Below, one piece after another: positions 1 through 35,109 of a stretch of DNA of 64,000 nt (positions are counted from its first letter, which is position 1; every line of letters begins with the position of its first letter). The notes below the pieces were generated by a model. It had not been told where the DNA came from. It searched no databases and saw only the letters and a list, made by a program, of their open reading frames with translations. The DNA is taken from the IMG/VR virus record IMGVR_UViG_2684623189_000005; one strand, 5' to 3'. This stretch comes from a virus. Its lineage: Duplodnaviria; Heunggongvirae; Uroviricota; Caudoviricetes. A program made the translations under genes and the position numbers.

Positions 1-91
1 CACAACATCCGAGGACAGCAACACCCGATACTTTTTCCTGGCTTCCAGCAACGGGGTTTCTTCCTCCGTTGCATATACAGCTCACCTTTTT

Positions 92-385
92 TCACCCACG
101 ATTAACCAACAGCCAGACCAGCAGACACGCCACCACCGGCACAGCAAAATCCATCAGGCTTGCCACATCCCAAGCTCGCGGATCAAAACCGCCCCACCAC
201 GGCATATTCATTCGCTTGCCATGCCCGAACATTTCAATCCAGCGATATTCTGCCTGGGTATGTTCACGCGCAATGAAGAACGTACAACCGGCTATCGCTC
301 CGTAAGCCCAGTTTCCGGTAAAAAGACCAACCAGTATCTGCGCAGCCACAGCACAAAGCGCATGAAGTAAGGGGCTTATATCCAT
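92..385 (-). CDS. hypothetical small membrane protein
   Basis: 97-aa ORF with 2-3 hydrophobic segments; no recognised family; distal to side tail fibre gene. Confidence 0.3.
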   Translation of the reverse strand: MDISPLLHALCAVAAQILVGLFTGNWAYGAIAGCTFFIAREHTQAEYRWIEMFGHGKRMNMPWWGGFDPRAWDVASLMDFAVPVVACLLVWLLVNRG

Positions 386-397
386 TATTTCCTCCTT

Positions 398-676
398 TCA
401 GCTCCATTCCCGAAGCGGTGTTTCCAGCTCCACGACATAATCAGAGAATACAGAAACATCAAACAAGTCATCAAGAATGCGAATGTTGACAAAATAACCG
501 TCATTCCGGACACAGACAGGTTCTCCCTCTTCTGTTACCCCTGTTTCTGTGTAGGTGAAACCAATTTCATCGACTAACAGTTTATTCTGGAGGTCTTCAT
601 CCTCCTCCCAGTCAAGAGATGACAGGAAGGCCTTAAACTGCAGTTTGTCATGAAACTTCAAAGTTAAATCTTTCAT
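398..676 (-). CDS. hypothetical acidic protein immediately downstream of side tail fibre (possible fibre accessory factor)
   Basis: 92-aa ORF whose start overlaps the stf stop; lacks the usual Tfa C-terminal signature. Confidence 0.4.
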   Translation of the reverse strand: MKDLTLKFHDKLQFKAFLSSLDWEEDEDLQNKLLVDEIGFTYTETGVTEEGEPVCVRNDGYFVNIRILDDLFDVSVFSDYVVELETPLREWS

Positions 677-2739
677 ACGACCTCTTTTAATTGCCTGTCA
701 TTTAATTCTTTATGCCATATGCGGAAATTGCGAATATGGCCAAACAGATGTCGTTCTCCAGTATTCGTCTGCCCTCCAAATCGGATATTTTTATCAGCGG
801 TCACACCATTATATTCACAATAAACTTCATTAACCGCTTTACCATTTGTCACCACATGAAAGTGACCATCAGCTTTTGCAATACATCCAAATGTGGTTTT
901 CTCTGCAAATACATCTGTCGCTGCGCTATTAACATACAAGCCTGAAGGGTTTGACAGACTCATATATAACTTACCACTACCTCTGTTGATTGCTGCAATT
1001 GCTGATTGCCCGGTATTGGCTGCTGCTATATCCCACACGCGGGGTGCGGCGTTTGGTGCAATATCCCAGTTTTTATGAATCTCAAGTAAAAAAGTAAATG
1101 GTAACTTATAAAGATTATTTCTGGTGGGGATACTAACCAAATCACTGGCTCTTGTCGTTGCGCTGCCTCCTGAAATAATAAATGATGATACACACGGCCC
1201 ATTCTCTACTTGTGGGGTGGCAAGATAAATATAGTCACCAGATACTGTTGCCCCACCCCGCTCAGGAGAATACTGTATCTGAGAGCCTATTTTTAACTCA
1301 CCATCAATTGCCTGAATCGTTGCCTCTGCAAAAATCCAGCCTGTGGTCTTATCCTTCCTGACTCGTGCCGTAATTCTGCCGGCAGCCCCACCTGTCATAT
1401 TAATTTCAAGCGTTTGCGTATCAATGTACGCATCGCCAAGAAAAGTTGTTGCACTACCATCATACTTATCAAACCGTATACGTAACCTTACCTGTCGTTC
1501 TGTTTTAAAACGGCATGAGGTTGTCACGTACTTGTTATCGCCTGAGACATCAACTGACTTTGTTGCAGCAATTGATGCCATATTAATAGCCGAAGTTTGC
1601 CCAACCAGAGAATCGTTGCAGACAAACTTTCCATAAGTAAAACCAAAACTATCTGTCCCGGTTTCGGGCACATCCATGTTTGATGACTTCCCCCAGCTGG
1701 CTGGACTTTCCGAATTGAGCATGTAGTTCGTTCTTTGTCCCTCAATAAGCAGGCCATCACACTCAAATCGCGGCTCATTAATTTCCGCCGTTTTCAGTTC
1801 GCCAGATTTGTTGATATATGTTGCCGTTGATGCGCGACTGAAATTAACCTGTTTATCACTGGCGACCTGAACCACATCGTCACCAATAGCTATTTTTTTA
1901 TAGCCCGGAGAAAAACCCGCAATCATATCCAGTGAATCGTTAAACGGTATCCACACATCAGGCAGCGGCGGCACTATATTCGCATAGGGCTCTGCAGTCA
2001 CTTCCGCTGCGACTTCTGCGCGGTCTGCCGCCTTTTCAGCCCGTGTCGCTGCCGACAGAGCCTCATCCTTTTTCTGCCCGGCCTTTGTTGCGTCTGCTGC
2101 GGCCTCCCGCGCTTTTGTGGTGGCGACTCCGGCATTTTCAGCGGCTGACTCTGCATTACGGCGGGAAGCCTCTTCACTGTCTGCGGAGGCTTCTTCTGAC
2201 GCACGGGCATTTGTCTCTGAACGTTCTGCCGCTGTTGCTGCGTTTTGTGCGGCTGTTTTTGAAGAAGCTGCCGCTTTCGCGCTGTTACCTGCATTCGTCT
2301 CTGATGTTTTCGCCGCATTCCTGGACGATGCCGCTGCTGTTTCTGATTTCTTTGCTGCCGCTGCGCTCTGAGAGGCGGCTTCAGCGTTGCGTGCCACCTC
2401 TTCCACCATCTTTTCAAAACGATACAGTGCCTCCGGACGAACATCATCTTCTGTTGCAGCGCCCAGAAAATCATTCAATGTCCCCGGCTTAGAATCCTCA
2501 TACACGGTGATGGCCCCGGCATGTGAAGGCGGAAAACCTTCAACCAGCAGGATAACGCTGTACTGGCCATACTCGACATCCATGCTGTAACGTCCGGCTT
2601 CATCCGGATTTTCTGAGGCCACCGTGTTCACCACAACCGTGGTGCTGTTACGTTTTGCTTTGAGCTGAATGGTGCAGTTCTGTATCGGTTTTCCTGCACC
2701 GTCTTTCAGCACGCCTGAAATCTGTACTGCCATATTCAC
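673..2739 (-). CDS. stf: lambdoid side tail fibre protein (Stf-like N-terminus, Ala/Ser-rich stalk, lectin/LamG-like C-terminal domain)
   Basis: 688 aa; N-terminus MAVQISGVLKDGAGKPIQNCTIQLKAKRNSTTVVVNT matches the lambda Stf N-terminal domain as I recall it; lies directly downstream of the J 3' fragment. Confidence 0.8.
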   Translation of the reverse strand: MNMAVQISGVLKDGAGKPIQNCTIQLKAKRNSTTVVVNTVASENPDEAGRYSMDVEYGQYSVILLVEGFPPSHAGAITVYEDSKPGTLNDFLGAATEDDVRPEALYRFEKMVEEVARNAEAASQSAAAAKKSETAAASSRNAAKTSETNAGNSAKAAASSKTAAQNAATAAERSETNARASEEASADSEEASRRNAESAAENAGVATTKAREAAADATKAGQKKDEALSAATRAEKAADRAEVAAEVTAEPYANIVPPLPDVWIPFNDSLDMIAGFSPGYKKIAIGDDVVQVASDKQVNFSRASTATYINKSGELKTAEINEPRFECDGLLIEGQRTNYMLNSESPASWGKSSNMDVPETGTDSFGFTYGKFVCNDSLVGQTSAINMASIAATKSVDVSGDNKYVTTSCRFKTERQVRLRIRFDKYDGSATTFLGDAYIDTQTLEINMTGGAAGRITARVRKDKTTGWIFAEATIQAIDGELKIGSQIQYSPERGGATVSGDYIYLATPQVENGPCVSSFIISGGSATTRASDLVSIPTRNNLYKLPFTFLLEIHKNWDIAPNAAPRVWDIAAANTGQSAIAAINRGSGKLYMSLSNPSGLYVNSAATDVFAEKTTFGCIAKADGHFHVVTNGKAVNEVYCEYNGVTADKNIRFGGQTNTGERHLFGHIRNFRIWHKELNDRQLKEVV

Positions 2740-2791
2740 TCCACAAATAAAAAAGGCGCCATTTCTGGCGCCCGTATCTGGGTTATAAAAT

Positions 2792-3078
2792 TCAACTGAT
2801 ACTGATACCGGCTGTAGATTTCTTCATCACAACAACAAGAAGGTCGCTGATACTGGTCGTTGGCGTCCAGTTATTAGCACCATATGAAGAAACATTGAAA
2901 GTCAGGGTGACATGGCCGTGTCCGGCAGGCATATCAATGACTGATGAAAATACCCTGCTGACATCCGTCGCGGGTTGCTGAAAGATTTCCTGTCCGTTCT
3001 TCAGTACCTGCAGCTTACAGGTTGAATACCAGTATGACTGTTGGTTGTTGCTGTTGAAGTTTTCATGCTTACCCCCAC
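2792..3078 (-). pseudogene. J: 3' fragment of lambdoid host-specificity gene J (last ~95 codons), split from the 5' part by the Mu-like insertion
   Basis: Manual minus-strand translation gives ...[28 protein letters not shown]...[15 protein letters not shown]...[14 protein letters not shown], collinear with the lambda J C-terminus; in-frame with the J 5' part once the insertion is removed. Confidence 0.7.
3074..3078. repeat. target-site duplication, left copy (CCCAC; 5-6 bp, register ambiguous within a C-run)
   Basis: CCCCAC directly flanks TG at 3079 and is repeated directly after CA at 40289. Confidence 0.6.
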
Positions 3079-4304: not shown

Positions 4305-4322
4305 AAACGTTGGTTTGGGGGA
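4299..4322. other. gix/hix-like recombination crossover site 2
   Basis: ATAAAAACG-TT-GGTTTGGGGG; direct repeat of site 1. Confidence 0.5.
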
Positions 4323-4788
4323 AGGCTCTGCATTGCCTGTTGGTGTGCCTGTTCCGTGGCCCACCGCCACACCGCCAGCAGGCTGGTTACAGTGCAACGG
4401 AGCTACGTTCACCAAAGAACAATATCCTGTTCTGGCCAGAGTCTACCCGACCCTCCGTCTTCCCGATTTACGCGGTGAGTTTATCCGTGGATGGGACGAC
4501 GGGCGCAAGATTGACGAGGGGCGTAAGTTGCTTTCATGGCAGAAAGGTACACTGGTCGGCGGTCATGACGATAACGATTCTTCGCTGGATATCTCGTACA
4601 TGAGTAACGGAAATAATATTGACTATGGCGGCGATAAGGTGTTTGCGGGGAATTACCGTAGCGATTATTTGTGGTACGCAATTCTGGGTGGAACAAACAG
4701 TCGCGCAAAAGCCGAATTAAACGGAGCATTCTTTAACATAACCCGCCCCCGCAATATCGCGTTTAACTATATCGTGAGGGCGGCGTGA
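4315..4788 (+). CDS. promoterless alternative tail-fibre C-terminal cassette (Sv-type, proximal copy)
   Basis: Same conserved N-terminal crossover segment, divergent middle, conserved NIAFNYIVRAA end; converges on the Tfa gene. Confidence 0.7.
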   Translation: MGEGSALPVGVPVPWPTATPPAGWLQCNGATFTKEQYPVLARVYPTLRLPDLRGEFIRGWDDGRKIDEGRKLLSWQKGTLVGGHDDNDSSLDISYMSNGNNIDYGGDKVFAGNYRSDYLWYAILGGTNSRAKAELNGAFFNITRPRNIAFNYIVRAA

Positions 4789-4794
4789 TACCGT

Positions 4795-5409
4795 TCAGCT
4801 GGCAAGTGCCAGTGGCGCTTCCGGCCAGCTGATTTCAGGTGCCGTGCTGATATCCAGTGCGTTCAGCTCGTCGATATAATCCAGCACGGCGTTCAGTTTT
4901 GCCGTTTCTTCTGGTGTCAGACTGCGACCAGCACGCAGTTTGAGGTTGATAAGATCGACGGACGCCATCGCCTGTTTCACCCGTTGCTGGCGTTGCTGTC
5001 TGGCAACCTCCAGTTCTGCGGCTCGCTGCCGTTCAGTATCGGTTACCCACGCCTCACCGTTCCAGGTATCCCATGGCGTGGCCGGCTGTTTTGTGGTGGT
5101 GTCCGCCGGGTAATCACCCGGTTGGGTAATCAGAACGGGGTTACCGTTCTCCGTGCTGTATACCGTCTCGCCGCGGTGATCAGGCACATGCTCCCACCCG
5201 TTCAGCGTGGCAGTCCGGCAAACCACGTAACCCGAAATTGCCTCCGGCGGTGCATCGGCGCACGAATGTGCCGGAGTACCCACCCCAAGGGCGAGATACT
5301 CCACAGAGGATGAGGTGTATTCCCGGGTTTCCTCGTCATAGTGATATACAGTGATCTCGCCCGCTACAGTGGCGATACCGTTTTCATCCAGAACTGCAGT
5401 GTTACTCAT
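4795..5409 (-). CDS. U: tail fibre assembly protein (Tfa/U-like)
   Basis: 204 aa directly downstream of the fibre gene; C-terminal ...YIDELNALDISTAPEISWPEAP typical of Tfa chaperones. Confidence 0.8.
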   Translation of the reverse strand: MSNTAVLDENGIATVAGEITVYHYDEETREYTSSSVEYLALGVGTPAHSCADAPPEAISGYVVCRTATLNGWEHVPDHRGETVYSTENGNPVLITQPGDYPADTTTKQPATPWDTWNGEAWVTDTERQRAAELEVARQQRQQRVKQAMASVDLINLKLRAGRSLTPEETAKLNAVLDYIDELNALDISTAPEISWPEAPLALAS

Positions 5410-7046
5410 TAAACTGCCCTCACAATGTAATTAAGTGCAATGCTACGGGGTCTGACAGTGATACCCTTCGCATACCCGCTTCTGATAGAGGTCAGAATAG
5501 TAGCCTGCATACCATTGTCTGACATTGCCACGACAGGATCGCTGAATGTTGTCCCGTCCGGCATTTTAAAGCTGCCCTCACGAAGGTCTGTAATGGAATC
5601 TTCATTGTTGAATCCCATGCCGACTATCCCCGAGGTTCCCGTAGTGTCCTGGTTATAATAATCCAGCATTGCTGTTCTTAACAGCGTTGCCCCTTGTGCG
5701 GACAGCAACTTACGTCCTGTATCAACTTTGCGCCCGTCGTCCCATCCACGGATAAACTCACCGCGTAAATCGGGAAGACGGAGGGTCGGGTAGACTCTGG
5801 CCAGAACAGGATATTGTTCTTTAGTGAACGTAGCTCCGTTGCACTGTAACCAGCCTGCTGGCGGTGTGGCGGTGGGCCACGGAACAGGCACACCAACGGG
5901 TAGCGCCGAGCCTTCTCCTAAACCAAGGTAATTGAGGACATCTTTTATACTGCCCTTAGCGATAATAGCGCGACCAATAGCTGTAAGGGTTGCCAGCGCT
6001 GCGCGGTCTGCTCCGGTAAAATAAGGCAACCGATCTGCTGCAGTGGCAAGTCCTGCCAGAGCAGTGAGCGTGGCATCTGCCGGTTGTTTTCCGTTTGCCA
6101 GATCGTATGCAGCCTTGACCGCTTTCGGTGTGGCGGCCAGTATTTCAGACGTGCTGTTGATGGCACTGCTCAATTGTATGGTGCCTTTTGCCGTCAGCGA
6201 GGCAGCAGGCACTCCCGTTATCTGACTCCACGGGTGAGTGTGGCTGACGGGCGCCTTGCCGGCTGCAAGGTCGTATGCAGCCTTGACCGCCTTCGGCGTG
6301 GCAGCCTCAGTTTCTGATTGACTGTCCGTGGCGCTGCTCAGTTGTACGGTGCCTTTTGCCGTCAGCGAGGCAGCAGGCACTCCCGTTATCTGACTCCACG
6401 GGTGAGTGTGGCTGACGGGGGCCTTGCCGGCAGCCAGGTCATATGCAGCCTTGACGGCCTTTGGTGTGGCGGCCAGCGTTTCAGAGGTGCTGTTGGTGGC
6501 ACTGCTCAGTTGTACGATCCCTTTACGGGTCGTTGTTGCATCCTGGGCTGTGTATTTTCCCCGGGCCAGATCATACGCGATTTTCACAGCCTTCGGCGTG
6601 GCAGCCTCAGTTTCTGATTGACTGTCCGTGGCACTGCTCAGCTGTACGGTGCCTTTTGCCGTCAGCGAGGCAGCAGGCACTCCCGTTATCTGACTCCACG
6701 GGTGAGTGTGACTGACGGGTGCCTTGCCGGCTGCAAGGTCGTATGCAGCCTTGACGGCTTTTGGTGTGGCGGCCAGCGTTTCAGAGGTGCTGTTGGTGGC
6801 ACTGCTCAGTTGGGTGAACCCCTTAGCTGTCAGTGTCGCGTCCGGGTGGTTACGGGAACGTACGTGTTCAGCCAGTGACTGTGCGGCTTCCTCCGTTTTT
6901 TTCTTCAGCCATTTCGTCCTGTTTGCCAGTTGCCGGGGGGCTCGATTTGATATCCCGTCAGCACCACCCAGAACCGGATCTGATGTCTCCAGTTGATAGA
7001 TTTTTTCTTCCCACTTTTCTGTTTCATTCAGGTTTCCCATAATCAA
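5409..7046 (-). CDS. S: tail fibre protein (Mu S / P2 H-like) with internal repeats; currently expressed constant plus variable part
   Basis: 545 aa; N-terminus ...LETSDPVLGGADGISNRAPRQLANRT...; repeated KGxVQLSSATxSxSETxAATPKAVK units; C-terminus ends SIALNYIVRAV. Confidence 0.85.
   Translation of the reverse strand: MIMGNLNETEKWEEKIYQLETSDPVLGGADGISNRAPRQLANRTKWLKKKTEEAAQSLAEHVRSRNHPDATLTAKGFTQLSSATNSTSETLAATPKAVKAAYDLAAGKAPVSHTHPWSQITGVPAASLTAKGTVQLSSATDSQSETEAATPKAVKIAYDLARGKYTAQDATTTRKGIVQLSSATNSTSETLAATPKAVKAAYDLAAGKAPVSHTHPWSQITGVPAASLTAKGTVQLSSATDSQSETEAATPKAVKAAYDLAAGKAPVSHTHPWSQITGVPAASLTAKGTIQLSSAINSTSEILAATPKAVKAAYDLANGKQPADATLTALAGLATAADRLPYFTGADRAALATLTAIGRAIIAKGSIKDVLNYLGLGEGSALPVGVPVPWPTATPPAGWLQCNGATFTKEQYPVLARVYPTLRLPDLRGEFIRGWDDGRKVDTGRKLLSAQGATLLRTAMLDYYNQDTTGTSGIVGMGFNNEDSITDLREGSFKMPDGTTFSDPVVAMSDNGMQATILTSIRSGYAKGITVRPRSIALNYIVRAV
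5914..5937. other. gix/hix-like recombination crossover site 3 (inverted relative to sites 1 and 2)
   Basis: CTCCTAAACC-AA-GGTAATTGAG; reverse complement of the site 1/2 motif, followed by an inverted copy of the shared coding segment. Confidence 0.5.
6040..6880. repeat. ~300-bp tandem repeats inside the tail fibre gene (about 3 copies)
   Basis: Near-identical DNA blocks produce repeated antisense ORFs starting at 6318 and 6618 and repeated peptide units in S. Confidence 0.7.
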
Positions 7047-29180: not shown

Positions 29181-29657
29181 ATGACGCACACACTGAATCC
29201 GGTCATCACTGTCACTGTGTCCGGTCCTGTGGGCAGCGGTAAAAGTTACGTACTGGCGCGGATAGAAGAGATGGTGAAACAGGAACTCGGAAACAGCGTC
29301 ATTGTCGATGCTGCTGACGTGGAGAATGAGCGCCGTATGAATGGCGAAGATCTGACGACCTGGCAGAAGCCACGGGGTGGCACAGTGATCAGGCTAGAGG
29401 AATACACGGGACAGGGCCTGTTGTCATACGGCGAGGAGCGTATCTGTCGGACGAATGAGCTGCTGGATGTTATATGCCCCACGGGCCGGCAACCCTGGAT
29501 ACTGCCCGATGCACTGCATGCCACCATTGCGGCACTGATGACAGTTTACGATCAGGAGCTGCTCATGAAGGAGTTACGTAAACTCACCGGTCAGCCAACA
29601 GAATGTTGTTCGTCTCCGAAGTACGGCAAACAGGAAAACGCCCCGGATAATCCTTAA
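29181..29657 (+). CDS. small P-loop NTPase (orphan)
   Basis: 158 aa; Walker A GPVGSGKS near the N-terminus, Walker-B-like VIVDAAD; preceded by a GAGGAG ribosome-binding site. Confidence 0.6.
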   Translation: MTHTLNPVITVTVSGPVGSGKSYVLARIEEMVKQELGNSVIVDAADVENERRMNGEDLTTWQKPRGGTVIRLEEYTGQGLLSYGEERICRTNELLDVICPTGRQPWILPDALHATIAALMTVYDQELLMKELRKLTGQPTECCSSPKYGKQENAPDNP

Positions 29658-29694
29658 GATACCTCCTGAACAGAAACAGCCCTGAAGGGCTGCA

Positions 29695-30285
29695 CTAAAA
29701 AAAGAAGTGTATTATTGCCCAAACAGCTATAACGATGATTCCCAGCCCAAGAGCCGATTCTAACTTATCTTTGGCAGTCATTTTTACTGTTGTAGCGGGC
29801 GCAGGTAAGTCTTGCTGCTGTGGATTTTCTGTTAGTTGTTTACGAGAAGAAACATCGCCCCTATTAGTTTGCTTCATGTTGATTACAGATGCGTTATGGG
29901 CATTATCAGCAGCAATTGACTGAAGTTTTACAAAAGTTTTTGAATCTGTTTTAGCCAGAAGTAACCTATTTCCCGTAAACATTGCCTTAAAAGTGATAGT
30001 TTTTTTCGTCTTGTCCGCCGCACCAAGCAAACCTCCAATGACCAACCCTGCACCACCAAAGATTAATCCACCAAGCAAACCTGCGCCTGCCGCCTTACCT
30101 ATACGGCTTTCCTCTTCACTATCCGCAAGTTCAATCGATAAAAGCTCTTCTTTCAGATTTAATACAATATTTTCAGGAAAGCCTTGTTTTGGTTTTTTGG
30201 CAAACACGATGGTACCGAACCCCATGCTTGCCCACCCTTTAGGAAAACTTCCTGCGATAACCTGAATCCCTGCCATGTTCATCAC
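29695..30285 (-). CDS. glycine-zipper membrane protein
   Basis: 196 aa; GKAAGAGLLGGLIFGGAGLVIGGLLGAA glycine-zipper helix plus C-terminal TM LGLGIIVIAVWAIIHFFF. Confidence 0.6.
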   Translation of the reverse strand: MMNMAGIQVIAGSFPKGWASMGFGTIVFAKKPKQGFPENIVLNLKEELLSIELADSEEESRIGKAAGAGLLGGLIFGGAGLVIGGLLGAADKTKKTITFKAMFTGNRLLLAKTDSKTFVKLQSIAADNAHNASVINMKQTNRGDVSSRKQLTENPQQQDLPAPATTVKMTAKDKLESALGLGIIVIAVWAIIHFFF

Positions 30286-30366
30286 CTTTTACATTAAAAT
30301 TTCAGAACGCAGCATGATGCCGCCTTTGTCTTTTTTCTGATCCCATGGTAATTCAGCTGTTATTTT

Positions 30367-31353
30367 CTATTTAAGAATAAAACGGTATTTACTGTCAGGA
30401 GTGCTTTGCTGATCAAGTAGCAGTGAACGACATGGAGCAGTCAAAACCCGAGCATAACTACCATCAGGGCTTATGTTAATGTAACAAACCTTGCCCTTAA
30501 CACTATAATTTTCGGGGACGGATGCCTTTGCTGATACAGTAAATTTAAGGGTATGCCAGCCCGTTTTTTGCTTGTAGCTTGAAACCGAATGGAAATCATC
30601 TGAGTACTTATTTAACCCTAGAAACATGCTGCGCAGTGCGGGGATGGAATCTTCTATTATTTTATCGTTGGTTTTAATGTTAAAAACGCTGGTTTCAGTA
30701 GAAGCTACTGCTTTGGCATTTCCCCATTTACCAGCGAACACAATCATTCCCACGAAAAATATTGCTACAAGAACTAACACTCCCCCCAACACTACTACAT
30801 GAGGCTTCCGGCTTCTGGTTGGTACAGTTGCGACTGATTTTGCACCGCTTTCCGATGGAGGTGATAGAGTTTTACTCTCATCACGAATATTCAGCAGATC
30901 ATCAAAATAACCAAACACAGCCTGCAACTGCTCTTTGTCTAGGCCTTTAAGATGGGTTGTACCGAAATGCTTCAGACAGTATCTGTCACGGTCAAGACGA
31001 TACCCAGGGTCAGTAAGCGCCATTATTTTGCTGACCAGAAGATTACAGTCCTTCATATTCTGGATCTGTTGTGCATATCTCTGAAGGATCTCAACCGCAC
31101 CATGATAATCAGCCGCAGTCATTTCATTAACTGTTTTGGTATTAAGTTTCGTGTGGATCGTCATCCATAGCTCGCGCTTACTTTCCCCCAGATCAACCAA
31201 TTCATCCATCAATCTGTGTAAATCGCGTTTTTGCAGCAACGAAATTGGTTGCTGGGCCGAAGGAAGTATGTCAGCAGAATAGTTATGAATGGTAACATCA
31301 CCGCTGACAACGTTACCCACATCCCCGTTAACTGTTTGCTTCTCTTTACTCAT
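30367..31353 (-). CDS. bitopic membrane protein apparently translationally coupled to the prophage repressor
   Basis: 328 aa; start overlaps the repressor stop; one central TM (VVVLGGVLVLVAIFFVGMIVFAG) between a cytoplasmic N-domain and a Cys-containing periplasmic C-domain. Confidence 0.6.
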   Translation of the reverse strand: MSKEKQTVNGDVGNVVSGDVTIHNYSADILPSAQQPISLLQKRDLHRLMDELVDLGESKRELWMTIHTKLNTKTVNEMTAADYHGAVEILQRYAQQIQNMKDCNLLVSKIMALTDPGYRLDRDRYCLKHFGTTHLKGLDKEQLQAVFGYFDDLLNIRDESKTLSPPSESGAKSVATVPTRSRKPHVVVLGGVLVLVAIFFVGMIVFAGKWGNAKAVASTETSVFNIKTNDKIIEDSIPALRSMFLGLNKYSDDFHSVSSYKQKTGWHTLKFTVSAKASVPENYSVKGKVCYINISPDGSYARVLTAPCRSLLLDQQSTPDSKYRFILK

Positions 31354-31811
31354 CTTCTCTTGGTATTTTTGTTCATTATTCCACCTGTTCCTATGGTTAC
31401 GTTACCTTTGATAACATTCCCCAGAACATCTCCATGAATAACCTGTTCCGCCCGTTCTCTGGAGGAGCCAGTAGTCAAGGCCGACAAAACTGAACCTTTG
31501 ACCTGTAATGGTGCCTGCCGGTAGTGCTGCAGTAACTCCATTTCATCACGTGATAAAGTTATACCTGATGACTCCCCGGTAAGAATGAACTGTACATTGG
31601 CCCCAATTCTTGCAAAGGCTGCAAGTAACTCACCTCCGGGAACAGCAACCCCTCGTTCATATTTCCCCCACATTTCTCTTGAAACGCCACAAAGGGCTGC
31701 TACTTCAGCCTGCTTGAGTGATAACCGCGAACGCTCAGCTTTGAACCGCGACGCGCAAAGAGAATCAAAATTCACATAAACCTCATTGACAATGAGAACA
31801 ATAGTTCTCAT
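31350..31811 (-). CDS. prophage repressor (XRE-family HTH)
   Basis: 153 aa; HTH ...LSLKQAEVAALCGVSREMWGKYERG...; divergent from the ner-like gene. Confidence 0.75.
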   Translation of the reverse strand: MRTIVLIVNEVYVNFDSLCASRFKAERSRLSLKQAEVAALCGVSREMWGKYERGVAVPGGELLAAFARIGANVQFILTGESSGITLSRDEMELLQHYRQAPLQVKGSVLSALTTGSSRERAEQVIHGDVLGNVIKGNVTIGTGGIMNKNTKRR

Positions 31812-31861
31812 AATCTATCACATATAAAACAAACATCATTGCATCAACAAAGGAGACAACA
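31812..31861. promoter_or_regulatory. 50-bp divergent repressor/early-operon control region
   Basis: Only non-coding sequence between the divergent repressor and ner-like genes. Confidence 0.5.
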
Positions 31862-32050
31862 ATGACTTCCGAACAAGTTAAAAATCTCTTCCGTCAGCGT
31901 GGTATCACGTTTACCCGCTGGGCCGAAGAACACGGCTACAGCCGCAATGAGGTCTATCGTGTTCTCAATGGACAGACCAAAGCTCGTTACGGCAAAGCCC
32001 ATGAAATTGCCGTAAAACTGGGATTAAAACCCACGTCAAATGCGGCATAA
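31862..32050 (+). CDS. ner: Ner-like DNA-binding protein
   Basis: 62 aa; ...ITFTRWAEEHGYSRNEVYRVLNGQ... Ner/Nlp-type helix; first gene of the early operon. Confidence 0.7.
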   Translation: MTSEQVKNLFRQRGITFTRWAEEHGYSRNEVYRVLNGQTKARYGKAHEIAVKLGLKPTSNAA

Positions 32051-33339: not shown

Positions 33340-35109
33340 ATGAATGCTGCCCTGACTGAACGACTGGTTTATGTCGCCCGCGCGGCACGTGACGCGGGGC
33401 ATGGTAAACGCGGTGCAATATACGACGCTGCCTGTGCTGAACTTGGCATGTCCCGCGCCACTCTGCTGCGCAGGCTGAAGGAGGTCTCTGTGACTGATAA
33501 ACGCAAAAAACGCGCTGATGCCGGACGCAGCGCCCTGACCCGCGACGAAGCCGCGCTGATATCTGCCACACTGCGTGAGGCCACCCGCAAGAACGGTAAA
33601 CGCCTCTATTCCATCGCAGATGCAGTGGAAACCCTGCGGGCTAACGGCTTTATCACCGCAGGCAGAACAGATGAAACCACCGGTGAGTTTTTCCCGTTGT
33701 CTGAAGATGCCATCAGCCGTGCTCTGCGTAACTATGGCCTGCACCCGGAACAACTGGATGCTCCTGCACCGCATACCGAAGTGGCCAGTCTGCACCCCAA
33801 TCATGTCTGGCAGATTGACGCCTCACTCTGCACGCTTTACTACCTGAGCAATGGACATAAAGGGCTGCAGGTGATGGACAGCGCGAAGTTCTACAAGAAC
33901 AAGCCCGCTAACCTTGCCCGTATCGCCAGTGACCGCGTGTGGAGTTACGAGATTACCGACCATGCCAGCGGCTGGATTTACGTTGAGTATGTGACGGGCG
34001 CGGAATCAGGTGAGAACCTGTGTTCTGTGCTTATCAACGCCATGCAGGAGCGTGGCGGCGCAGACGTGCTGCACGGCGTGCCAAAAATACTCTATCTCGA
34101 CCCCGGCTCGGCAAACACCGCGGGTATGACGAAAAACATGTGCCGCTCACTGGGCATCGACCTGATAGCGCACAAGCCGCATAACGCCCGCGCCACCGGA
34201 CAGGTGGAAAAGGCGCGGGACATTATCGAACGCAAGCTGGAGCCGGGTCTGAAGTTCCGGCCGGTTCACAGTCTGGAAGAACTCAATGCGCTGGCCGCGA
34301 AATGGCGCAGCCACTTTAACGCCACGGCTGTTCACAGCCGCCACGGTAAAACCCGCACGGATATCTGGCTGAAGATTACTGCTGAGCAGCTGAAAAAAGC
34401 GCCTTCCGTTGAGGTATGTCGTGAACTGGCTGTGGCGGCACCAGAACTCCGCAAAGTCACGCCAAAACTTCGTGTCTCGTTCCGGGGCACTGAATTTGAC
34501 GTATCAACGGTACCGGGCGTACTGGTCGGTGAAAAACTGATGATTACCCGTAACCCGTGGCGCAGCGATGTGGCACAGGTGGTTCTGACCGGTGAGGACG
34601 GCCACGAGACGTTCTTCCTGGTCGAAGAAGTCAGAAAGAACGAGTTTGGCTTTGCTGAAGGCGCGGCGGTATTTGGCGAAAGTTACAAAGCCCTGCCGGA
34701 AACCCCGGCGCAGATGGCGGCAAAAGAAACCGAAGCGCTGGTCACCGGTACAGACAACGCCGCAGATGCAGCTGCCGCACGCAAGGCGAAGGCGCTGCCG
34801 TTCGGCGGGCGGCTTGACCCATATAAACATATTGATGACGCCACACTTCCGGCCTATATGCCGAAGCGAGGTCAGGCCTCTGACGTACGCGGGCCGCGCA
34901 CTGAACAACGTCCCATGACTCATGTGGAGGCCGCGAAAGCCCTGCGCGATAAGTTCAGCGCCGACGGCCTTACCTGGACGCCGGAACATTACCGCCAGTT
35001 AACGGCACAGTATCCGGACGGCGTACCGGAAGCCGCACTGGATGAAGTCATGGCCACGCTGACCACGCCGGCCCGCAGCAGCGTTATCAGCATTGTTAAC
35101 GGCAACTGA
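33340..35109 (+). CDS. DDE transposase (Mu A-like function; integrase-core fold)
   Basis: 589 aa; N-terminal HTH, central ...HVWQIDAS... and ...ILYLDPGSANTAG... DDE-type core. Confidence 0.85.
   Translation: MNAALTERLVYVARAARDAGHGKRGAIYDAACAELGMSRATLLRRLKEVSVTDKRKKRADAGRSALTRDEAALISATLREATRKNGKRLYSIADAVETLRANGFITAGRTDETTGEFFPLSEDAISRALRNYGLHPEQLDAPAPHTEVASLHPNHVWQIDASLCTLYYLSNGHKGLQVMDSAKFYKNKPANLARIASDRVWSYEITDHASGWIYVEYVTGAESGENLCSVLINAMQERGGADVLHGVPKILYLDPGSANTAGMTKNMCRSLGIDLIAHKPHNARATGQVEKARDIIERKLEPGLKFRPVHSLEELNALAAKWRSHFNATAVHSRHGKTRTDIWLKITAEQLKKAPSVEVCRELAVAAPELRKVTPKLRVSFRGTEFDVSTVPGVLVGEKLMITRNPWRSDVAQVVLTGEDGHETFFLVEEVRKNEFGFAEGAAVFGESYKALPETPAQMAAKETEALVTGTDNAADAAAARKAKALPFGGRLDPYKHIDDATLPAYMPKRGQASDVRGPRTEQRPMTHVEAAKALRDKFSADGLTWTPEHYRQLTAQYPDGVPEAALDEVMATLTTPARSSVISIVNGN

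What the first reader, a model, noticed from the sequence alone, without database searches (positions are those of the whole stretch)
31290..31420. Shared GDV-GNV-G-VTI motif straddles the repressor/membrane-protein gene boundary
The last ~20 residues of the repressor (...VIHGDVLGNVIKGNVTIGTGG) and the first ~20 of the downstream membrane protein (...VNGDVGNVVSGDVTIHNY) carry the same short motif within ~100 bp of each other. This suggests a local duplication or a shared interaction element, possibly coupling repressor state to the membrane protein.
Basis: seen in the sequence. Interest (0 to 1): 0.5.

Follow-up and report, generated by a model that had tools for sequence, protein, structure and literature searches.

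The report
Repressor tail matches membrane-protein head
A prophage repressor ends with the same short glycine-rich motif that begins the membrane protein encoded by the next gene, and this tail-to-head match changes in step across many phages, which points to direct contact between the two proteins, in the same gene layout as known amyloid signalling pairs.

Summary
The repressor (31350-31811, minus strand) carries GDVLGNVIKGNVTI at aa 127-140. The next gene (30367-31353, minus strand, overlapping by 4 bp) starts with GDVGNVVSGDVTI at aa 10-22. No shuffle out of 20,000 reaches the observed similarity.

The motif is the most conserved part of both proteins. Codon identity between the two copies is exactly what random synonymous choice predicts, so this is not a recent duplication.

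The match generalises. In relatives from many Proteobacteria, including the type phage BcepMu (gp17/gp18), Ps59 and RSA1, the repressor tail and the downstream N-terminus carry the same motif. The motif differs between loci: GNRVAGRDYNE, FHGxVGQV, and a RHIM-like G-phi-Q-phi-G.

AlphaFold places both segments in disordered terminal extensions. The downstream protein has a distantly Flk-like cytoplasmic domain, one transmembrane helix and a periplasmic domain.

My best reading is a co-evolving like-with-like beta-strand contact that ties the repressor to a membrane-anchored partner. The layout (C-terminal motif of gene 1, N-terminal motif of the adjacent gene 2) is that of amyloid signalling pairs such as Bab/Agp and HET-S/NWD2, but with new partner domains. 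Physical interaction, amyloid formation and the direction of control are all untested. I found no description of this pairing in the searchable literature.

The parts
31350..31811 (-). Prophage repressor gene, 153 aa as annotated. XRE/Cro-CI-type HTH, then two helices, then a disordered tail. The true start is probably the GTG at 31773-31775 (MNFDSL..., 141 aa).
   Evidence: ORF. Pfam HTH_31/HTH_3 at aa 22-68. PGAP annotates the same ORF in E. coli IAI39. Related to BcepMu gp17, 38.5% identity, E 5e-12. AF2: HTH 15-78 and helices 88-114 confident, aa 122-153 pLDDT<50. Most homologues start at MNFDSL. An early-promoter-like site overlaps the annotated 5' end.
31380..31442 (-). Repressor tail motif, aa 124-144 VIHGDVLGNVIKGNVTIGTGG (core GDVLGNVIKGNVTI at 31392-31433).
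   Evidence: Column identity is 0.95 across 11 repressors whose HTH region is only 0.55 identical. Synonymous to nonsynonymous codon differences are 56:16.
31353..31379 (-). Basic C-terminal end of the repressor, aa 145-153 IMNKNTKRR. A Lys/Arg-rich end follows the motif in nearly all tail-bearing relatives.
31350..31353 (-). 4-bp ATGA overlap of the repressor stop codon and the membrane-protein start codon (translational coupling).
   Evidence: The same -4 spacing is seen in orthologous loci.
30367..31353 (-). Gene for a 328-aa bitopic inner-membrane protein (phrog_10002; precomputed PF27202).
   Evidence: AF2 model.
31279..31332 (-). Membrane-protein head motif, aa 8-25 VNGDVGNVVSGDVTIHNY (core GDVGNVVSGDVTI at 31288-31326), on a disordered N-terminal extension.
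   Evidence: Nearly invariant in homologues of 45-82% identity. Column identity is 0.93 against 0.76 for the helical domain. Synonymous to nonsynonymous is 29:12. AF2 pLDDT<50 for aa 1-29.
30871..31263 (-). Cytoplasmic helical domain, aa 31-161, distantly Flk-like.
30730..30801 (-). Single transmembrane helix, aa 185-208. The N-side flank is TRSRKP, so the head and helical domain are inferred to be cytoplasmic.
   Evidence: The topology is an inference from the positive-inside rule and the absence of a signal peptide.
30370..30693 (-). C-terminal alpha/beta domain, aa 221-328, inferred periplasmic. It has two conserved cysteines (C290, C308).
   Evidence: AF2 pLDDT about 90. Alignment. Cysteine positions.
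29695..30285 (-). Third gene of the operon: 196 aa, with a glycine-zipper segment and a C-terminal transmembrane helix. It does not carry the motif and is not conserved in other loci.
   Evidence: The third genes of BcepMu, Ps59 and L155 are different proteins.
29676..29693 (-). Terminator-like hairpin ending the repressor / membrane protein / 196-aa operon.
31786..31814 (+). Sigma-70-like promoter (TTGACA-17-CATAAT, 11 of 12 matches) facing the divergent early operon: ner-like gene 31862-32050, HTH protein, DUF3102 protein, transposase 33340-35109.

Best explanation
The shared motif is a co-evolving, like-with-like interaction element. The disordered C-terminal tail of the prophage repressor and the disordered, cytoplasmic N-terminal head of the membrane-anchored, Flk-like protein made from the next cistron carry the same run of short beta-strands separated by glycines. 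I propose that they pair with each other, strand against strand and possibly by stacking. Both proteins are made from one transcript in the lysogen. The membrane protein would therefore capture part of the repressor pool at the inner membrane. The most likely consequence is that it sequesters or inactivates repressor, acting as a membrane-anchored anti-repressor or buffer. That would give a transposable phage whose repressor has no self-cleaving domain a way to set or flip the lysogeny switch without RecA.

Shown: the motif match; its conservation under purifying selection; its step-by-step co-variation in dozens of loci; its independence from the flanking domains; its position in predicted disordered termini; and the operon structure.

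Inferred: physical contact, membrane topology, and the direction and outcome of control.
For: 1. The match is far beyond chance.
2. The motif is the best-conserved segment of both proteins, 0.95 and 0.93 column identity against 0.55 for the HTH and 0.76 for the helical domain. Synonymous changes outnumber nonsynonymous ones.
3. Co-variation: 28 of 51 dereplicated relatives have a tail/head score of 31-70, against 19 +/- 4 for shuffles. The cognate head is top-ranked for 13 of 51 tails, where about 1 is expected. Motif classes differ between loci but match within each locus. Examples: GKGNRVAGRDFNENKK / GGQNRVAGRDFNENK; GHRFALGDYHE / EHRIALGDYYE; GGVQVGYVGGSV / GGVQVGKVDGDV; BcepMu gp17 QEQVFHGSVGQAVKVEGNL / gp18 KQEFNKPVGQAIQAGEANI; Ps59; RSA1.
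4. All 73 viral loci (35 distinct pairs) with an NRxAGRDF head have an upstream gene ending in the matching tail.
5. Concerted evolution: for several loci the locus's own head is as close to the tail as any tail from another locus, or closer.
6. Codon identity between tail and head equals the random expectation, 117 observed against 117.6 expected, so the match is kept at the protein level.
7. Modularity: the same tail sits on three different HTH subtypes. The same motif class sits on Flk-like, zinc-ribbon and other two-TM downstream proteins; the G-phi-Q-phi-G class occurs so far only on small soluble ones. This argues for motif-to-motif contact rather than docking into a globular pocket.
8. 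Both segments are low-confidence termini next to well-folded domains.
9. Relatives whose repressor lacks the tail also lack the N-terminal matching head (L006-L010, L016, L020, L022).
10. The repressor has no S24 peptidase domain.
Against: No interaction was measured, and no complex could be modelled with the tools available. A few tails are orphans: Komp_PAO1_1 CDS53 is followed by a secreted protein, and L021 and L024 have no detectable partner. Linked genes share their history, so part of the co-variation could be hitch-hiking of a cassette, although the concerted change of both copies argues against simple drift. The periplasmic domain of the window protein is absent from most relatives, which are tail-anchored, have two TM helices, or in one class are soluble. 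Periplasmic sensing therefore cannot be the general mechanism. The direction of control (membrane protein acting on repressor, or the reverse) is not constrained by any result here.
Confidence: 0.6

Rival explanations
1. Antitoxin-like neutralisation. The membrane protein is a toxic or abortive-infection/exclusion effector, and the repressor tail binds its head to keep it silent. Loss or titration of repressor would release the effector. Control would run from repressor to membrane protein, in a discrete, non-amyloid complex.
For: An XRE HTH protein followed by a translationally coupled small membrane protein is a common toxin-antitoxin or Abi layout, and the HTH weakly matches antitoxin families. 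Downstream partners are mostly small membrane proteins with one or two TM helices. Genes in the immunity operon are expressed in lysogens, where exclusion functions usually sit. All the co-variation evidence fits this reading equally well.
Against: No PADLOC defence family matches the membrane protein or the third gene. Antitoxin tails normally wrap a globular toxin and do not resemble it in sequence. Some partners are soluble (L030, L109, L119). The gene is clearly the prophage's main repressor, facing the ner/transposase operon.
Confidence: 0.2
2. Both segments are recognised independently by a third factor, such as a protease like ClpXP, Lon or FtsH, a chaperone, or another phage protein. 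They would resemble each other because they fit the same site, not because they touch each other.
For: From memory of the Mu literature: the C-terminal tail of the Mu repressor controls its degradation by ClpXP. Both segments are exposed, disordered termini, which is typical of degrons.
Against: Very different motif classes occur in prophages of the same host species. E. coli has both GDVxGNV and GNR[VI]AG[RH]D types (P0050, P0051; phage 520873). A host factor cannot explain locus-specific matching. No third gene is conserved across loci. The motif profile finds no other protein families.
Confidence: 0.12
3. The motif is a generic self-association peptide that each protein uses for its own homo-oligomerisation, and it is inherited together as a cassette. 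There is no functional contact between the two proteins.
For: Repressors need oligomerisation for cooperativity. The motif unit occurs as a tandem repeat in an unrelated repetitive protein (P0134), which suggests a stackable unit.
Against: Independent use would not keep the two copies matched while the classes diverge. Tail and head are gained and lost together. A peptide that self-associates would also be expected to bind an identical copy on the other protein.
Confidence: 0.06
4. Chance resemblance of low-complexity sequence, or a decaying relic of a local duplication, with no function.
For: The motif is short and rich in G, N, V and D.
Against: 0 of 20,000 shuffles reach the score. Only these two families are found among 1.84 billion proteins. 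The motif is the most conserved segment of both proteins. There is no excess of codon identity. The match recurs with different sequences in dozens of loci.
Confidence: 0.02

Closest known systems
Bab/Agp (BASS11) amyloid signalling pair of E. coli ECOR25 (bioRxiv 10.1101/2024.11.07.622273)
   Same: Two adjacent collinear genes in a prophage region. The upstream protein ends with a short motif of about 20-25 aa, and the downstream protein begins with the same motif. The BASS11 motif is described as several short beta-strands separated by glycines, and the window motif has the same look.
   Different: There the partners are a Bell-like pore-forming effector and a TPR-GreA/B-C-PIN sensor. Here they are an XRE repressor and a Flk-like membrane protein. 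Fibril formation, prion-like foci and Abi function were shown there; nothing was tested here. I could not compare the sequences, because the paper's text does not print the motif.
Fungal HET-S/NWD2 and bacterial Bell/NLR pairs with BASS1-10 motifs (bioRxiv 10.1101/2020.01.06.895854)
   Same: The defining layout is a motif common to the C-terminus of one protein and the N-terminus of the adjacent one. In that set 91% of pairs are collinear, 57% lie within 10 bp and 42% overlap; here the overlap is 4 bp. Three distant relatives (L030, L109, L119) carry the G-phi-Q-phi-G signature that the paper gives as the shared core of RHIM, PP and BASS3.
   Different: No NLR/STAND sensor and no cell-death effector domain is present. 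The hosts are unicellular Proteobacteria and their phages, not filamentous bacteria. The window's own motif lacks the G-phi-Q-phi-G signature.
BcepMu gp17 (repressor) / gp18 (membrane protein), with the equivalent pairs of phiE255, Ps59 and RSA1
   Same: Homologous immunity module in the type phage of this prophage group. gp17 matches the window repressor. The gp17 tail and gp18 head share a motif.
   Different: The motif class is different (FHGSVGQAV type), and gp18 looks different beyond the head (by eye; not compared with a tool). Neither protein pair has been characterised. The papers I could read only call gp17 the lysogeny repressor.
Flk (RflH, 'Fluke') of Salmonella and E. coli
   Same: A cytoplasmic helical module tethered to the inner membrane by a C-terminal-side TM helix and preceded by a disordered N-terminal stretch. 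There is distant sequence similarity. Flk is a membrane-tethered inhibitor that holds a switch, the flagellar secretion-specificity switch (PMC13344023).
   Different: The NCBIfam score is far below the family cut-off. Flk has no Gly-rich head motif, has duplicated modules and has no periplasmic domain. No link to flagella is indicated here.
Lambda cI-rexA-rexB immunity operon; Mu repressor C-terminal tail and ClpXP; RstC-induced aggregation of the CTXphi repressor RstR (all recalled from memory, not checked here)
   Same: Accessory proteins co-transcribed with a repressor that modulate the switch; a flexible repressor tail that controls repressor fate; and inactivation of a repressor by aggregation.
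   Different: None of these involves a sequence motif shared between the repressor and its partner.

Membership tests
Amyloid signalling motif (ASM/BASS-type) gene pair | A motif of about 15 aa or more shared by the C-terminus of one protein and the N-terminus of the protein encoded by the adjacent collinear gene | tested here: met
   21 aligned positions with 11 identities, score 55, 0 of 20,000 shuffles reach it. 4-bp overlap, same strand. Definition taken.
Amyloid signalling motif (ASM/BASS-type) gene pair | [quoted passage not shown] | tested here: met
   28 dereplicated pairs across several motif classes, 35 further distinct pairs, and BcepMu, Ps59 and RSA1.
Amyloid signalling motif (ASM/BASS-type) gene pair | The motif lies outside the globular domains, in a terminal extension, and is predicted to be extended (beta) | tested here: inconclusive
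   Both segments are termini with pLDDT<50 next to confident domains. The pattern is G-separated hydrophobic/polar triplets. No beta or amyloid propensity predictor was available.
Amyloid signalling motif (ASM/BASS-type) gene pair | Partner domains: an oligomerising NLR/STAND-type or similar sensor at the N-motif side, and a cell-death or immune effector (Bell, HeLo, TIR, CHAT) at the C-motif side | tested here: not met
   The C-motif protein is an XRE HTH repressor. The N-motif protein is a Flk-like membrane protein. No defence families match.
Amyloid signalling motif (ASM/BASS-type) gene pair | Peptides form amyloid fibrils and template each other (prion-like) | not testable with these tools
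   Needs ThT/Congo red assays, electron microscopy, GFP-foci and cross-seeding experiments.
RHIM / PP / BASS3 motif family | Central G-phi-Q-phi-G signature | tested here: not met
   Absent from the window motif. Present in the matched tails and heads of the distant relatives L030, L109 and L119. No Pfam motif family is hit by any tail or head.
XRE/Cro-CI-type prophage repressor (BcepMu gp17 group) | HTH_3/HTH_31 domain; gene divergent from the early ner/transposase operon; homology to gp17 | tested here: met
   Repressor activity itself was not tested.
LexA/CI-type self-cleaving repressors | C-terminal S24 peptidase domain with an Ala-Gly cleavage site | tested here: not met
   Pfam finds only the HTH. 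The C-terminal part is two helices plus a disordered tail. A few distant homologues (P0092, P0093, P0102) do carry PF00717.
Flk family (NCBIfam PRK10715) | [quoted passage not shown] | tested here: not met
   46.6 bits against a cut-off of 353; only aa 19-147 match. The TM helix is internal and followed by a domain of about 120 aa. This is distant homology of one module only.

The most novel reading that the evidence does not exclude
The tail/head pair is a true amyloid-type (cross-beta, prion-like) signalling motif. Clustering of the membrane-anchored protein would nucleate its N-terminal motif. That nucleus would template the repressor tails into an insoluble or inactive state and irreversibly flip a temperate phage from lysogeny to lytic growth, or lock immunity in place. 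A lysogeny switch would then be run by amyloid templating. It would be widespread in BcepMu-like, P2-like and other prophages of Proteobacteria, with motif classes acting as private 'immunity-type' codes, and some classes would be RHIM-like.
Probability: 0.3. Interest if true: 0.92.

Novelty: new variant of a known kind. Interest (0 to 1): 0.78.

Why it matters
How transposable and other non-SOS prophages sense when to leave lysogeny is poorly understood. This repressor has no self-cleavage domain. A conserved, co-evolving peptide code that links the repressor to a membrane-anchored partner gives a concrete, testable handle on that question: delete or swap about 15 residues and watch the effect.

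If the contact is amyloid-like, it would take amyloid signalling beyond cell-death immunity into transcriptional control of a virus. It would also add many new motif families in ordinary Enterobacteria, Pseudomonas, Burkholderia and Ralstonia. If the contact is instead a discrete complex, it is still an undescribed way of tethering a phage repressor to the membrane. It would also be the first functional clue for a large family of 'hypothetical' prophage membrane proteins, and for the distantly related Flk module.

Tried and rejected
- **Recent DNA duplication or gene conversion.** Rejected: the DNA alignment is weak, and codon identity at identical residues equals the random expectation, 117 against 117.6.
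- **Ribosome hopping or recombination between the two motif copies to make a repressor-membrane fusion.** Rejected for the same reason. Nucleotide identity is not selected, and the matching codons differ (GGA/GGG, GTT/GTG, AAT/AAC).
- **Mis-called start codon, so that the head is not translated.** Rejected: synonymous changes outnumber nonsynonymous ones 29:12 in the head codons, and the head is nearly invariant in homologues.
- **Common low-complexity pattern.** Rejected.
- **Known motif or domain families for the tail or head.** Pfam at E<=10 gives nothing meaningful.
- **Known defence systems.** PADLOC has no hit for the membrane protein or the third gene.
- **Identity of PF27202.** This precomputed family is not in the local Pfam copy and is not mentioned in any searchable paper.
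- **Literature.** No paper combines amyloid signalling with prophage repressors. The ASM detection papers do not mention HTH, repressor or phage. The Fc02 paper on exclusion genes near a repressor concerns a different phage group and gene arrangement.
- **Broad Flk-like domain alignment as a locus query.** It failed for lack of a conserved stretch. A narrower alignment worked.
- **Modelling the complex.** Not possible.
Full report
**1. The observation.**
The minus strand of window 29676-31811 carries a three-gene operon. The first gene is a 153-aa XRE-type HTH protein (31350-31811). The second is a 328-aa protein (30367-31353) whose ATG overlaps the first gene's stop codon (ATGA). The third is a 196-aa protein (29695-30285), followed by a terminator-like hairpin.

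They are repressor aa 124-144, VIHGDVLGNVIKGNVTIGTGG (31380-31442), and downstream protein aa 8-25, VNGDVGNVVSGDVTIHNY (31279-31332).

The pattern G[DN]V.{0,1}G[DN]V occurs nowhere else in the six frames of the window. The local alignment of the last 40 aa against the first 50 aa scores 55. None of 20,000 shuffles reaches that (maximum 46). The next best of 50 collinear neighbouring ORF pairs in the window scores 29.

**2. Context.**
The region is the immunity region of a BcepMu-like transposable prophage. The repressor faces a divergent early operon: a ner-like HTH gene, an IclR-like HTH gene, a DUF3102 gene, an rve transposase, an ExeA-like B protein and gam. On the other side lie holin, SLT endolysin and the structural genes.

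The 1.8-kb segment is 95-100% identical, over at least 80% of its length, in 126 complete E. coli genomes. The prophage occupies about 3078-40289 of the window.

A strong promoter-like site, TTGACA-17-CATAAT at 31786-31814 on the plus strand, faces the early operon. It overlaps the annotated 5' end of the repressor ORF. The real start is therefore probably the GTG at 31773-31775, which is where most homologues begin.

**3. Conservation.**
Homologues of the membrane protein at 45-82% identity keep GDVGNVVSGDVTI almost invariant. Repressors carrying the same tail fall into three HTH subtypes that are only about 55% identical in the DNA-binding part. Even so, GDVLGNVIKGNVTI is kept at 95% column identity.

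In both proteins the motif is the most conserved segment: 0.95 against 0.55 for the HTH, and 0.93 against 0.76 for the helical domain and 0.65 for the periplasmic domain. Between orthologous loci, synonymous codon differences outnumber nonsynonymous ones. The ratio is 29:12 in the head and 56:16 in the tail. Both segments are therefore translated and under purifying selection.

**4. The match generalises and co-varies.**
Repressor relatives have Gly-rich tails of several different kinds. I fetched 39 genomic and 80 viral loci and read the gene downstream of each repressor.

Wherever the repressor has such a tail, the next gene almost always begins with the same motif, and the motif differs from locus to locus:

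| Locus | Repressor tail | Downstream head |
|---|---|---|
| L012 | GKGNRVAGRDFNENKK | GGQNRVAGRDFNENK |
| L060 | GRNNRVAGHDYHEGKK | GKGNRVAGRDYHEHH |
| L101 | GHRFALGDYHE | EHRIALGDYYE |
| L081 | FNGNIDGQVSAENIYNI | FNHTVGQVAANNIYNI |
| L013 | VGQYIHGSVNQSGVTFNV | HGGVGQVAEGDINNYGINI |
| L109 | GSGVVQIGSVGGN | GERSIQIGNVTGN |
| L119 | AGGVQVGYVGGSV | SGGVQVGKVDGDV |

Among 51 dereplicated loci, 28 pairs score 31-70, against 19 +/- 4 for shuffled heads. The cognate head is the single best of 51 for 13 tails, where about 1 is expected.

A second scan started from the head side. It found 73 loci (35 distinct pairs) with NRxAGRDF heads, and every one has an upstream gene ending in the matching tail. 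These include integrase-type (P2-like) prophages.

Cultured phages show the same thing:
- BcepMu: gp17 tail QEQVFHGSVGQAVKVEGNLDQQGISF, gp18 head KQEFNKPVGQAIQAGEANIADRSVNI.
- Ps59: gp17 tail ITVTGNGNRTAGQVYHE, gp18 head IEVTGSNNKVAGRDFIE.
- RSA1: ORF35 and ORF33 match, with an IS transposase inserted between them.

Relatives whose repressor has a different, tail-less C-terminus also lack the N-terminal matching head. In two loci the partner lies 0.6-1.1 kb further downstream.

There are exceptions. Komp_PAO1_1, L021 and L024 have orphan tails.

**5. The similarity is kept at protein level.**
At the 273 positions where tail and head have the same residue, 117 use the same codon. The expectation from each locus's own codon usage is 117.6. 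That excludes recent duplication, gene conversion, and any mechanism that needs nucleotide identity, such as recombination or ribosome hopping.

For several loci the tail is as similar to its own head as to any orthologous tail from another locus, or more so. The two copies therefore change together.

**6. The two proteins.**
AlphaFold (monomers, with alignments) gives the following for the repressor: a confident HTH (aa 15-78) and two helices (aa 88-114), with aa 122-153 below pLDDT 50.

For the downstream protein it gives:
- aa 1-29 below pLDDT 50;
- a confident helical domain, aa 31-161;
- a low-confidence linker and one TM helix (aa 185-208);
- a confident alpha/beta domain, aa 221-328.

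There is no signal peptide, and the N-side flank of the TM helix is positively charged. I therefore infer that the head and the helical domain are cytoplasmic, where the repressor is.

The helical domain is distantly related to the N-terminal module of Flk. The NCBIfam PRK10715 match has E 2.9e-12 but scores far below the family cut-off. BLASTP against E. coli Flk gives 25% identity over 133 aa, E 2e-5. Flk is a membrane-tethered cytoplasmic inhibitor of the flagellar secretion switch (PMC13344023).

No fold match in the PDB is significant, and no defence family matches.

In other loci the same motif classes head quite different proteins: tail-anchored Flk-like proteins, zinc-ribbon proteins with two TM helices, and other two-TM proteins. 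The G-phi-Q-phi-G class heads small soluble proteins. The motif is thus a portable module on both sides.

**7. What it most likely is.**
The simplest account of a short, disordered, strongly conserved terminal peptide that is kept matched between two co-translated proteins, whatever globular domains they carry, is that the two copies bind each other. The sequence reads as three or four short beta-strands separated by glycines, followed in the repressor by a Lys/Arg-rich end. That suits strand-to-strand pairing or stacking.

I therefore propose that the membrane-anchored protein captures the repressor by its tail. The most likely effect is sequestration or inactivation of repressor at the membrane. 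This would give a phage whose repressor has no S24 self-cleavage domain a RecA-independent way to tune or flip the switch.

The contact, the topology and above all the direction of control are inferences. The main rival is the reverse polarity, in which the repressor tail silences a membrane effector, as an antitoxin does. Recognition of both segments by a third factor is unlikely, for three reasons:
- different classes coexist in prophages of one host species;
- no third gene is conserved;
- the motif profile finds no other family among 1.84 billion proteins.

**8. Comparison with what is known.**
The layout, with a C-terminal motif in gene 1 repeated at the N-terminus of the adjacent collinear gene 2, often with overlapping ORFs, is exactly the criterion used to discover amyloid signalling motifs in fungi and bacteria. 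It has been shown to work by amyloid templating in the E. coli Bab/Agp antiphage pair.

Three distant relatives here even carry the G-phi-Q-phi-G core that the literature gives for RHIM, PP and BASS3.

Against membership: the partner domains are entirely different. There is no NLR-like sensor and no cell-death effector. The window motif has no known signature, and amyloid formation cannot be tested here.

I therefore say that it is built like an amyloid signalling pair and may work like one. I do not file it as a member.

I found no paper linking amyloid signalling to prophage repressors, and no comment on the gp17/gp18 match.

**9. Verdict.**
The feature is real, conserved and general. It is a new variant of the matched-terminal-motif gene pair, in a new functional setting: the lysogeny control region of temperate phages.

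Confidence that the motif mediates repressor-partner contact is about 0.6. Confidence that the contact is amyloid-like is about 0.3.

Noticed in passing
window 31773-31814: A strong sigma-70-like promoter (TTGACA-17-CATAAT, 31786-31814, plus strand) for the early operon lies inside the annotated 5' end of the repressor ORF. The GTG at 31773-31775 (MNFDSL...) is where most homologues start, so the annotated 153-aa product is probably 12 residues too long.
   Followed up: partly
window 29695-30285 (-) and 29676-29693 (-): The third gene of the immunity operon encodes a 196-aa protein (phrog_12025) with a glycine-zipper stretch (GAGLLGGLIFGGAGLVIGGLLGA) and a C-terminal TM helix, followed by a terminator-like hairpin. 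It has no Pfam, PADLOC or NCBIfam match, and it might be an exclusion or membrane-active protein.
   Followed up: partly
window 30871-31263 (-): The cytoplasmic domain of the membrane protein is a distant relative of the N-terminal module of the flagellar switch regulator Flk. Many prophage 'hypothetical membrane proteins' downstream of repressors share this module. The precomputed Pfam label PF27202 could not be identified.
   Followed up: partly
window about 3078-40289, especially about 4307-5926: The whole BcepMu-like prophage lies in the window. Segment about 4307-5926 aligns in the opposite orientation to the otherwise collinear E. coli IAI39 copy. It sits next to a recombinase gene and tail-fibre genes, so it looks like an invertible tail-fibre (G-segment-like) region caught in the other orientation.
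   Followed up: partly
L202 (E. coli IAI39 NC_011750.1 1992000-2041000); window flanks 1-3077 and 40290-64000: In IAI39 the same prophage is inserted inside the lom (Ail/Lom) gene of a lambdoid prophage. The window's flanks match other parts of that region or do not match at all. This fits insertion by transposition at different sites.
   Followed up: partly
window 29181-29657 (+): A 158-aa P-loop protein, annotated 'ABC transporter ATPase' in RefSeq, sits alone on the opposite strand between the lysis cassette and the immunity operon. It has only weak AAA-type matches.
   Followed up: no
L203 (Ralstonia phage RSA1) 1992-4363: An IS transposase gene (ORF34) is inserted exactly between the tail-bearing repressor gene (ORF35) and the head-bearing membrane-protein gene (ORF33). 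It separates a matched pair without destroying either motif.
   Followed up: partly
P0134 (776-aa protein from the representative library): The unit GDVLGNVLGGVxGNITAGTVSAGSI, close to the window motif, occurs about eight times in tandem in an unrelated repetitive protein. This hints that the motif can form a stackable beta-repeat unit.
   Followed up: no
L006-L010, L016, L020, L022; Ps59 gp18 (L122 2914-3510): A second conserved Gly-rich beta-like segment (ITISVGGDNPGSIHVGSVVNI, IVKIKGDYGNINLGTQNFEI, SISVTVGGDQAGNISLGGTQINI) lies inside a different family of downstream two-TM proteins. In some of these loci the repressor has no matching tail.
   Followed up: no
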